Assembly (NCBI GenBank): GCA_964016885.1
Contig: OZ024747.1
Location: 17,856,001-17,920,000, forward strand
Length of the DNA: 64,000 nucleotides
Source of the DNA: Eledone cirrhosa
Lineage: Eukaryota
Direction of reading: 5' to 3'
In this document: in pieces, positions 42,637 to 44,078 of the stretch
Layout of the letters: each line of letters starts with the position of its first letter
Position numbering within the stretch: the stretch's first letter is position 1
The notes under the pieces: model-generated
Told to the model about the DNA's origin: nothing
Database searches by the model: none
The model's input: the letters and a program-made list of their open reading frames with translations, nothing else
Program-made: the position numbers and the translations under genes

Positions 42637-42673
<37 letters not shown>

Positions 42674-42988
42674 GTGGAACACTGGAAGGTAATATCCGGA
42701 GTGGTAGAGCACTCAGTCCAAGGGACGAGTTAGGTAGAAGTGGTTACACAACAGTTAGTTCACCATACCGAGAACAATTGTTTCACCTTCGCGGATCTTC
42801 AGCTCGGGATGTGTATGGTTATAGGAACAGGAAGGACAACCGTACGAACGCGCATGCGCAGAAACTCGGTCACCTCACAGGCAGTACTAGACTGCGTGCG
42901 GGAGGTGTAAGGGAGATAACTGCGAAAGTCCGGAAAGTTTTTAGGTTGAAAATAAAATTTAAAAAATAAAAAATTAAATTACAAAGAA

Positions 42989-43494
42989 TCAGTCCGGAGC
43001 TTTGTAGTTATGCAATAGATGTTTGGTGACGTGTGGACAACGTGTGAAAAATTTACTTCTCGTGTTTAGGCAATCACTATTGCGTAAACTCTTTAGGATA
43101 GTGATTCGTTCGTCGATACATAAGCCACACGTTGGATTTCCCCTTGTGTATGGCTTGGACTTAGTGATGGCTTTCCATTGAATGGAGTAGCCTATACTTG
43201 AGTCCTTGAGGGACCATACGTGGCTCGCGAGTTTCGTGGATGAACGTCTGTCCGGGTATCTGAAGGTAGACTGGTGGTTCAGGAAACGCTCCTTGAATCG
43301 GCCTCCGCCATGCCCACATAGGATTTTACCTCCTGTGGTTCGTTTGGTCGGTTGGAAGTGACCACAGCTTCATAGATTACAGCTGGCGTGTTGCATTGCT
43401 GTTGAAGGGGGCAAGCTTCAGGCTTACGGCAAGAGCACCCTGGTGGGGTGTTGCTCCTAGGGCTGCTGGCGATGTGGGCCTTCATGTTCTTAGC
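42989..43494 (-). pseudogene. PLE C-terminal GIY-YIG endonuclease domain, one frameshift near 43300
   Basis: CSCRKPEACPLQQQCNTPAVIYEAVV...KSYVGMAE, then after a frameshift RFKERFLNHQSTFRY...TKLASHVWSLKDSSIGYSIQWKAITKSKPYTRGNPTCGLCIDERITIL...LNTRSKFFTRCPH...APD*. Shows VIY/YVG motifs, catalytic R and E, the conserved N, CxxC and CxH. Confidence 0.85.
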
Positions 43495-43953
43495 GCTAAG
43501 AACATGAAGGCCCACATCACCAGCAGCCCTGGCAGCAACACCCCACCAGGGTGCTCTTGCCGTAAGCCTGAAGCTTGCCTCCTTCAACAGCAATGCAACA
43601 CACCAACTGTAATCCAAGCCATACGCAAGGGGAAATCCGACGTGTGGCTTATGTATCGACGAACGAATAACTATCCTAAAGAGTTTACGCAATAGTGATT
43701 GCCTAAACACGAGAAGTGGATTTTTCACACGCTGTCCACACGTCACCAAACATCTATTGCATAACTACAAGGCTCCGGACTGATTCTTTGTAATTTTATT
43801 TTTAATTTTTTTAATTTTATTTTCAACCTAAAAACTTTCCGGACTTTCGCAGTTATCTCTCTTACACCTCCCGCACGCAGTCTCTGTGTGAGCTGACCGA
43901 GTTTCTGCGCAGCGCGTTCGTACGGTTGTCCTTCCTGTTCCTATAACCATACA

Positions 43954-44001
43954 CATCCCGAGCTGAAGATCCGCGAAGGTGAAACAATTGTTCTCGGTAT
44001 G
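43954..44001 (+). ncRNA. Minimal type I hammerhead ribozyme motif (mirror copy on - strand at 42764-42811)
   Basis: ccgag-CTGAAGA-t cc gcgaa gg t-GAAAC-aatt-GTT-ctcgg. Stem I ccgag/ctcgg, short stem II, palindromic stem III (ACAATTGT), GUU triplet. Confidence 0.75.
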
Positions 44002-44025
44002 GTGAACTAACTTTTGTGTAACCAC

Positions 44026-44078
<53 letters not shown>

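What the first reader, a model, noticed from the sequence alone, without database searches (positions are those of the whole stretch)
42671..44029. 1.36-kb nested palindrome built from a GIY-YIG endonuclease gene end plus hammerhead
Seen: a zero-spacer palindrome centred at 43494/43495 (ttcttagc|gctaagaa, ~120-bp arms) sits inside ~420-bp outer arms. The right copy lacks 43160-43374 and the ~65-bp left tail. The minus strand encodes CxCx5CPLx3C-VIY-YVG-RFKER-H...W...CxxC..E...LN.R...CxH-stop, with a hammerhead ~180 nt downstream. Established: PLE insertions are often 5'-truncated with inverted duplication and a short one-sided tail. Inference: the C-terminal Cys-rich endonuclease resembles the Hydra-type PLE clade. 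This copy ties the short non-coding palindromes to a coding element, and the fold-back point may record self-primed second-strand synthesis.
Basis: partly seen in the sequence, partly recalled or inferred. Interest (0 to 1): 0.75.

Follow-up and report, generated by a model that had tools for sequence, protein, structure and literature searches.

The report
Head-to-head Hydra-clade Penelope retrotransposon insertion
This palindrome is two shortened copies of the end of a common Penelope-like jumping gene of a known group, joined back to back inside a TA repeat and likely made when both cut DNA strands each started copying the element's RNA; the layout is ordinary for this class.

Summary
The structure is real: one head-to-head insertion in (TA)n. 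The left arm (824 nt) carries the endonuclease end, 3' UTR, hammerhead motif and a 64-nt tail. The right arm has no tail and has lost 217 nt internally, which is why it looks nested. It belongs to a Hydra-clade Penelope-like (PLE) family with thousands of copies. A near-full-length copy (L031) has the clade's motifs. Predicted folds match GIY-YIG I-TevI (Z 8.8) and telomerase RT (Z 17.1). Inverted truncated copies, tails and junction palindromes are published PLE features. Pure fold-back does not explain the family. Of 91 tail-less ends, 55 had an inverted partner: 46 ended in the tail, none at the tail-less site. In 13 of 45 pairs the tail-less arm reaches over 20 nt further than the tailed arm, so it cannot be a copy of it. 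Best reading: priming from both target strands at two fixed RNA sites, with the cDNA ends joined at a native GCGC. Snap-back at this one centre is not excluded. Reads did not bridge the junction. The scan reached this reading before on other DNA of this genome.

The parts
42671..43494 (-). Left arm: 5'-truncated 3' end of a Hydra-clade PLE (linker and endonuclease end, 3' UTR/pLTR, tail)
   Evidence: 95-97% to 39 other scored copies over the full 824 nt
42989..43494 (-). ORF end: CxCx5C linker, GIY-YIG endonuclease with CxxC..E..N..CxH, stop 42991-42989; one frameshift near 43302
   Evidence: fold of the uninterrupted reading in family copy L033 matches I-TevI, Z 8.8, rmsd 2.5, 90 aligned
42768..42807 (-). 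Type I hammerhead motif, left copy (core CUGANGA/GAA, 5-bp stem I, self-complementary 8-nt helix III; predicted cut after 42773)
   Evidence: activity untested; not found by Rfam
42671..42734 (-). 64-nt one-sided tail between the family's two fixed 3' ends
   Evidence: 2057 exact tail-less ends; 1055 exact tailed ends
43493..43496 (.). Head-to-head junction at a native self-complementary GCGC; zero spacer
   Evidence: native sequence in other copies; the same 24-nt junction occurs at exactly 2 loci genome-wide
43495..43614 (+). Right arm, inner 120 nt
43611..43614 (+). Joint of the 217-nt internal deletion, with 2-nt TC microhomology
   Evidence: the exact 17-nt joint occurs once in the genome
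43613..44030 (+). Right arm, outer part: endonuclease C-terminus, 3' UTR/pLTR, ending at the tail-less site
43958..43997 (+). Type I hammerhead motif, right copy
42643..42670 (.). (TA)n target, left flank
44031..44078 (.). (TA)n target, right flank

Best explanation
The locus is one head-to-head insertion of two 5'-truncated 3' ends of a Hydra-clade Penelope-like retrotransposon in a (TA)n tract, likely made by twin priming. Shown: family identity, anatomy, two fixed 3' ends 64-67 nt apart, tailed-with-tail-less pairing in every pair whose partner ended at one of the two sites, and arms that often hold sequence the partner lacks. Inferred: the GIY-YIG endonuclease nicks both strands of the self-complementary (TA)n. 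One 3'-OH primes reverse transcription at the tail end and the other at the inner site 64 nt upstream; both sites are followed by TA in the element. The two cDNAs run up the same or a sibling RNA, and their 3' ends are joined head to head. Here both stopped near the same point in the ORF and annealed through the native GCGC, which gives a zero-spacer centre and lets each cDNA serve as template for the other's second strand. The 217-nt gap is likely an RT template jump over TC microhomology. The copy is now a decayed relic: frameshifted, without RT, arms 3.6% apart.
For: Identity: near-full-length copy L031 has pLTR-ORF-pLTR with RWR, DKT and YRDD, matching the Hydra definition and the published alignment. 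RT model matches telomerase RT, Z 17.1, rmsd 4.2, 318 aligned; EN model matches I-TevI. Mechanism: 55 of 91 tail-less ends had an inverted partner; 46 of 55 ended in the tail, 0 at the tail-less site. In 45 clean pairs the tail-less arm was longer by more than 20 nt in 13 and the tailed arm in 12; 5 tailed arms lie almost wholly in the tail. The two 5' ends are coupled: within 10 nt in 16 of 45, against a permutation mean of 4.75 (0 of 20000 shuffles reached 16). Arms overlap by 2 nt or more at 17 of 45 joints. 36 of 91 tail-less ends had no inverted partner, so that site behaves as a start site in its own right. An independent locus (L018; other flanks; its arms share 14 differences from the family majority) has the same GCGC centre. 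In vitro, a PLE protein nicks and extends both strands and starts at two internal sites that delimit the tail (PMC11167929).
Against: Exact symmetry deep in the ORF is rare: 0 of 17 long pairs exact, 2 of 17 within 20 nt. Twin priming therefore needs the extra assumption of a shared RNA end here. Short zero-spacer inverted arms that reach neither fixed end exist (2 of 52) and look like snap-back. The window's arms share only 3 differences from the majority of 29 copies (2 private, one beside an indel) and are no closer to each other (3.6%) than to the best other copies (3.0-3.4%). PMC11167929 saw no strand difference in start-site use, whereas here the pairing is tailed with tail-less. 18 of 45 joints have inserted bases rather than overlaps. 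No biochemistry was done.
Confidence: 0.65

Rival explanations
1. Hybrid: the tailed cDNA snapped back at GCGC and copied 120 nt of itself (inner arm), then joined by TC microhomology to a separately primed tail-less cDNA (outer arm). The 217-nt gap would then be a joint between two products, not a deletion.
For: Explains the exact centre and the gap together. Short snap-back-like arms of 28 and 19 nt with zero spacer exist (L187, L206), plus L027. The gap joint is unique in the genome.
Against: Internal jumps are common without a symmetric centre (7 of 52 arm ends are direct jumps; L078, L090, L113, L203). L018 has the same centre with no gap.
Confidence: 0.2
2. Pure self-primed fold-back: one cDNA folds back, copies itself, and is cut at the tail-less site.
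For: Zero-spacer centre at a self-complementary 4-mer at 2 independent loci. Excess of near-symmetric joints and tailed-with-tail-less pairing.
Against: Cannot make the 13 of 45 pairs with a longer tail-less arm, the 5 tail-only partners, or the 36 solo tail-less ends. It needs a precise extra cut.
Confidence: 0.1
3. Assembly mirror artefact, or two independent insertions side by side.
For: No read or contig bridged the centre or the gap joint in the 6 runs laid (short reads, individuals not known to match the assembly).
Against: The arms differ at 19 positions plus indels, which a mirror artefact would not. The same tailed/tail-less layout occurs in 46 of 91 sampled ends. Both arms begin at the same base.
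Confidence: 0.05

Closest known systems
Hydra clade of Penelope-like elements, e.g. Hydra-1_Obim (Craig et al. 2021, PMC8557442; section 11, passages and supplement parts read)
   Same: C-terminal GIY-YIG EN; CxCX5C linker; CxxC and CxH around E and N; no CCHH; DKT; RW(K/R); hammerhead with CUGAAGA core; (TA)n insertion; unit about 2.6 kb.
   Different: A different family from Hydra-1_Obim: three probes (two DNA, one peptide) were absent from the paper's supplement and the proteins differ throughout by eye. A pLTR is present here (L031); the tail is 64 nt rather than 30-40.
Inverted pLTR, tail and junction palindromes of EN+ PLEs (Arkhipova et al. 2013, PMC3846280; passages read)
   Same: Head-to-head inverted 5'-truncated copy, tail on one arm, palindrome at the junction.
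   Different: That paper reads the palindromes as self-priming on an antisense template; the arm statistics here favour two priming events.
Poseidon element PAc in vitro (Frangieh et al. 2024, PMC11167929; parts 1-2 of 4 read)
   Same: Two internal RT start sites delimit the tail; both target strands are cut and extended; AT-rich target.
   Different: Other clade; no strand-specific start use seen; the parts read offer no model for head-to-head joints.
LINE-1 twin priming (recalled, no call)
   Same: Both target strands prime cDNA and the cDNA 3' ends are joined, often with microhomology.
   Different: In L1 the second primer lands at variable internal sites and the arms hardly overlap. Here the second site is fixed and the arms overlap, giving palindromes.

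Membership tests
Penelope-like element (EN+) | Telomerase-like reverse transcriptase in a single ORF | tested here: met
   In family copy L031, not in the window: 722-aa open frame with YRDD; model's top matches are yeast and Candida telomerase, Z 17.1 and 16.6. Pfam gave no hit for this protein.
Penelope-like element (EN+) | C-terminal GIY-YIG endonuclease | tested here: met
   Model pLDDT 90; top 3 matches I-TevI Z 8.8, T4 EndoII 7.1, UvrC 5.9. Foldseek, Pfam and PDB sequence search gave nothing significant.
Penelope-like element (EN+) | pLTR from partial tandems, optional tail, inverted truncated copy | tested here: met
   L031 has a 382-nt direct pLTR; tail and inverted copies.
Penelope-like element (EN+) | Hammerhead motif in the pLTR | tested here: met
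   Core, stem I and palindromic helix III kept in about 95% of 173 aligned copies; the only variable core position is N7 (A 87, G 83). No compensatory changes; stem II only 2 bp; monomer fold z -0.35; Rfam negative.
Penelope-like element (EN+) | Hammerhead self-cleavage activity | not testable with these tools
   Needs an in vitro cleavage assay.
Hydra clade | CxCX5C linker; CxxC and CxH around E and N; no CCHH | tested here: met
   Window translation; C29, C31, C37 invariant in 115 aligned homologues; definition.
Hydra clade | DKG changed to DKT; RWK motif | tested here: met
   L031 has DKT and RWR, a conservative variant of RWK.
Hydra clade | Insertion into (TA)n; unit under 3 kb | tested here: met
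   Both window flanks; 2057 and 1055 exact end-plus-TA matches, reversed controls 0; unit 2577 nt.
Hydra clade | Placement in the Hydra clade in an RT phylogeny | not tested
   No tree was built; the named reference proteins were seen only as paper text.

The most novel reading that the evidence does not exclude
Penelope-like elements build their inverted ends by a fixed two-site twin-priming reaction: the two target strands always use different start sites (tailed and tail-less) on one RNA complex, and the two cDNAs prime each other's second strand. Short hammerhead palindromes are run-offs at the RNA's 5' end in the pLTR (54 of 141 arm ends in one 39-nt stretch, against 3 in the stretch before). 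Long zero-spacer palindromes such as this one mark broken RNAs joined at self-complementary 4-mers. This would replace the published self-priming reading.
Probability: 0.5. Interest if true: 0.5.

Novelty: new member of a known kind. Interest (0 to 1): 0.25.

Why it matters
The locus itself is an ordinary dead copy of a known retrotransposon clade, with a published layout. Its value is as part of a family census that bears on an open question: how PLEs make inverted ends, tails and second strands. The census gives testable predictions: strand-coupled use of two start sites, joints at self-complementary words, and run-off at the RNA 5' end. A search for Penelope plus twin priming listed 2 papers, neither on PLE mechanism by title or abstract start, and a second search listed none beyond the Hydra paper. 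The library lacks most subscription papers.

Tried and rejected
Rfam at gathering and E-value thresholds: no hammerhead hit, only hairpin-type microRNA models. Pfam on 5 peptides and on 65 aligned proteins: no GIY-YIG hit; RVT_1 weakly in 2 of 65. PDB sequence search and Foldseek for the EN model: nothing significant. Truncation hot spot at the fold point: not significant, 6 ends in 20 nt against 3.2 expected, p 0.11, 92 arms after dropping 2 duplicates. Deletion as an inherited subfamily trait: the exact joint occurs once. Deletion as a spliced intron: its ends are not GT-AG on either strand. Apparent pile-up of ends at one base (reference position 2439): an artefact of a second subfamily, removed with subfamily references. 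Homology to the window's other palindromes: none. Reads: no RNA holder listed; no record bridged the joints, which is inconclusive. Hammerhead cut as the usual turning point: most ends lie 20-60 nt upstream of the predicted cut.

Full report
Observation. The structure is present as described. Inner arms 43375-43494 and 43495-43614 are 95% complementary with no spacer, and the outer arms span 42735-43163 and 43610-44030 at 95%. Aligning the whole left arm to the right arm gives 517 matches, 19 mismatches, a single 217-nt gap and a 64-nt left-only tail. It is therefore one palindrome with an internal deletion in the right arm, set in (TA)n on both sides. The minus strand encodes the Cys-rich linker and endonuclease end across one frameshift near 43302. 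A hammerhead core lies 187 nt past the stop, in both arms.

What it is. The left arm has 4008 candidates in the genome; of the 40 scored, the 39 besides the window's own match at 95-97%. Walking upstream gave a near-full-length copy, L031: a 382-nt pLTR, an ORF with RWR, DKT and YRDD, and a 3' pLTR; the unit is 2577 nt. 1799 homologues passed E 1e-20 among 7998 scored candidates. The endonuclease model, from copy L033, matches I-TevI at Z 8.8, rmsd 2.5, 90 residues, followed by T4 EndoII and UvrC. The RT model matches telomerase RT at Z 17.1, rmsd 4.2, 318 residues. Pfam, Rfam, Foldseek on the endonuclease and a PDB sequence search did not recognise these parts. The motifs fit the Hydra clade as defined in PMC8557442 section 11 and in its supplementary alignment. 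The published octopus member Hydra-1_Obim is related but another family. A cephalopod host is my inference from that relative and the genome size; no call names it. The hammerhead is a type I motif with a self-complementary helix III. Its positions are kept in about 95% of 173 copies and N7 varies freely, but there is no compensatory change and stem II is weak. Activity is untested.

Family anatomy. Copies end at two fixed sites, each joined to TA: 2057 exact tail-less ends and 1055 exact tailed ends, controls 0 (several subfamilies share these words). I examined the first 90 listed places of the 2057, all on contig 1, which gave 91 ends. 55 had an inverted head-to-head partner: 46 ended in the tail, none at the tail-less site, 7 elsewhere, 2 ran off the fetched DNA. 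For statistics I kept 45 pairs: I dropped one duplicate (L051) and one unresolved pair (L040) and added L089, whose tail end is shown. The tail-less arm was longer by over 20 nt in 13, the tailed arm in 12, and 5 tailed arms were nearly all tail. The two 5' ends lay within 10 nt in 16 pairs (shuffle mean 4.75, 0 of 20000), but among 17 long pairs only 2 lay within 20 nt and none was exact. Joints showed overlap of 2 nt or more in 17, blunt or 1 nt in 10, inserted bases in 18. In 10 of 14 pairs with long overlap the arms were closer to each other than 90% of other copies were; this shows the same subfamily, not the same molecule. 5' ends pile up just upstream of the hammerhead: 54 of 141 in a 39-nt stretch against 3 in the 39 nt before it (counted), which suggests an RNA 5' end there.

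This copy. The centre is a native GCGC. The same 24-nt junction occurs at one other locus, L018, which has other flanks, no deletion and its own variants, so it is an independent event. The site is not a significant truncation hot spot (p 0.11). The deletion joint is unique by exact match. The arms share 3 variants, 2 of them private, and are 3.6% apart, so a common template is only weakly supported. Six public runs showed no record bridging the joints, which is inconclusive.

Mechanism. Best reading (0.65): the endonuclease nicks both strands of (TA)n, the two ends prime at the tailed and the tail-less site, and the two cDNAs are joined at their 3' ends, here through GCGC; the gap is an RT jump. 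The ends, their pairing and the arm lengths are shown; nicking, priming and joining are inferred, with support from the in vitro behaviour of another PLE (PMC11167929). A hybrid of snap-back for the inner 120 nt plus a twin-primed outer arm gets 0.2, since 2 of 52 arm ends show short zero-spacer arms. Pure fold-back gets 0.1 and artefact 0.05.

Comparison and novelty. Inverted truncated copies, tails and junction palindromes are described in PMC3846280 (passages) and PMC8557442 (passages); hammerheads in pLTRs in PMC4209133 (part 1 of 4). bioRxiv 10.64898/2026.07.22.740005 (part 1 of 5) links non-coding hammerhead repeats to PLEs; its supplements were not seen. PMC13282606 (passages) adds nothing on Hydra. 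LINE-1 twin priming is recalled, not read. Two searches listed no paper that by title or abstract start applies twin priming to PLEs. Earlier notes of this scan reached the same reading on other DNA of this genome; my reading was formed before I saw them and they are not independent evidence. The window's other short palindromes share the layout but not the sequence.

Verdict.

Noticed in passing
window 44079-44276 and 44417-44617: Adjacent short palindrome with tail in (TA)n from another abundant family (3811 candidates). In the 30 loci viewed the joint differs by a few bases from copy to copy around one point (selected by similarity). No coding partner was looked for.
   Followed up: partly
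window 32387-32734, 4680-4817, 28666-28902: Further TA-embedded palindromes with one-sided extensions; hammerhead-like cores at 32487/32634 and 4745; none homologous to this family.
   Followed up: partly
L031 about 6260-6300 (window about 42830-42860, minus strand): Just upstream of the pile-up of 5' ends lie words resembling NRF1 and ETS promoter motifs (names recalled, no call); a possible pLTR promoter.
   Followed up: no
L195, L196, L197: Three copies share the same internal deletion (reference 727 to 1403): a non-autonomous subfamily or duplicated loci.
   Followed up: no
L160, L161, L218, L222, L246: Inverted arms that begin at internal positions and reach beyond the main arm's 5' end, like classical variable-site twin priming.
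   Followed up: partly
L032 6747-8000 minus; L033 6661-7887 plus and 2536-3150 minus; L031 1431-2516 minus: Neighbouring ORFs read by eye as another Hydra-like family, a PLE RT with DKG, a Cys/His-rich GIY-YIG end, and a mariner-like transposase.
   Followed up: no
L102, L056: Copies of this family joined directly to sequence resembling the neighbouring short-palindrome family.
   Followed up: no
L050, L051: Two loci about 0.93 Mb apart with identical insertion joints: a segmental or assembly duplicate.
   Followed up: no
window 62318-62381; 41357-41460 and 41815-41920; 40887-41020; 45450-45593: A tRNA-like match (likely a SINE head), a dispersed repeat pair, and 17-bp and 24-bp tandem arrays.
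   Followed up: no
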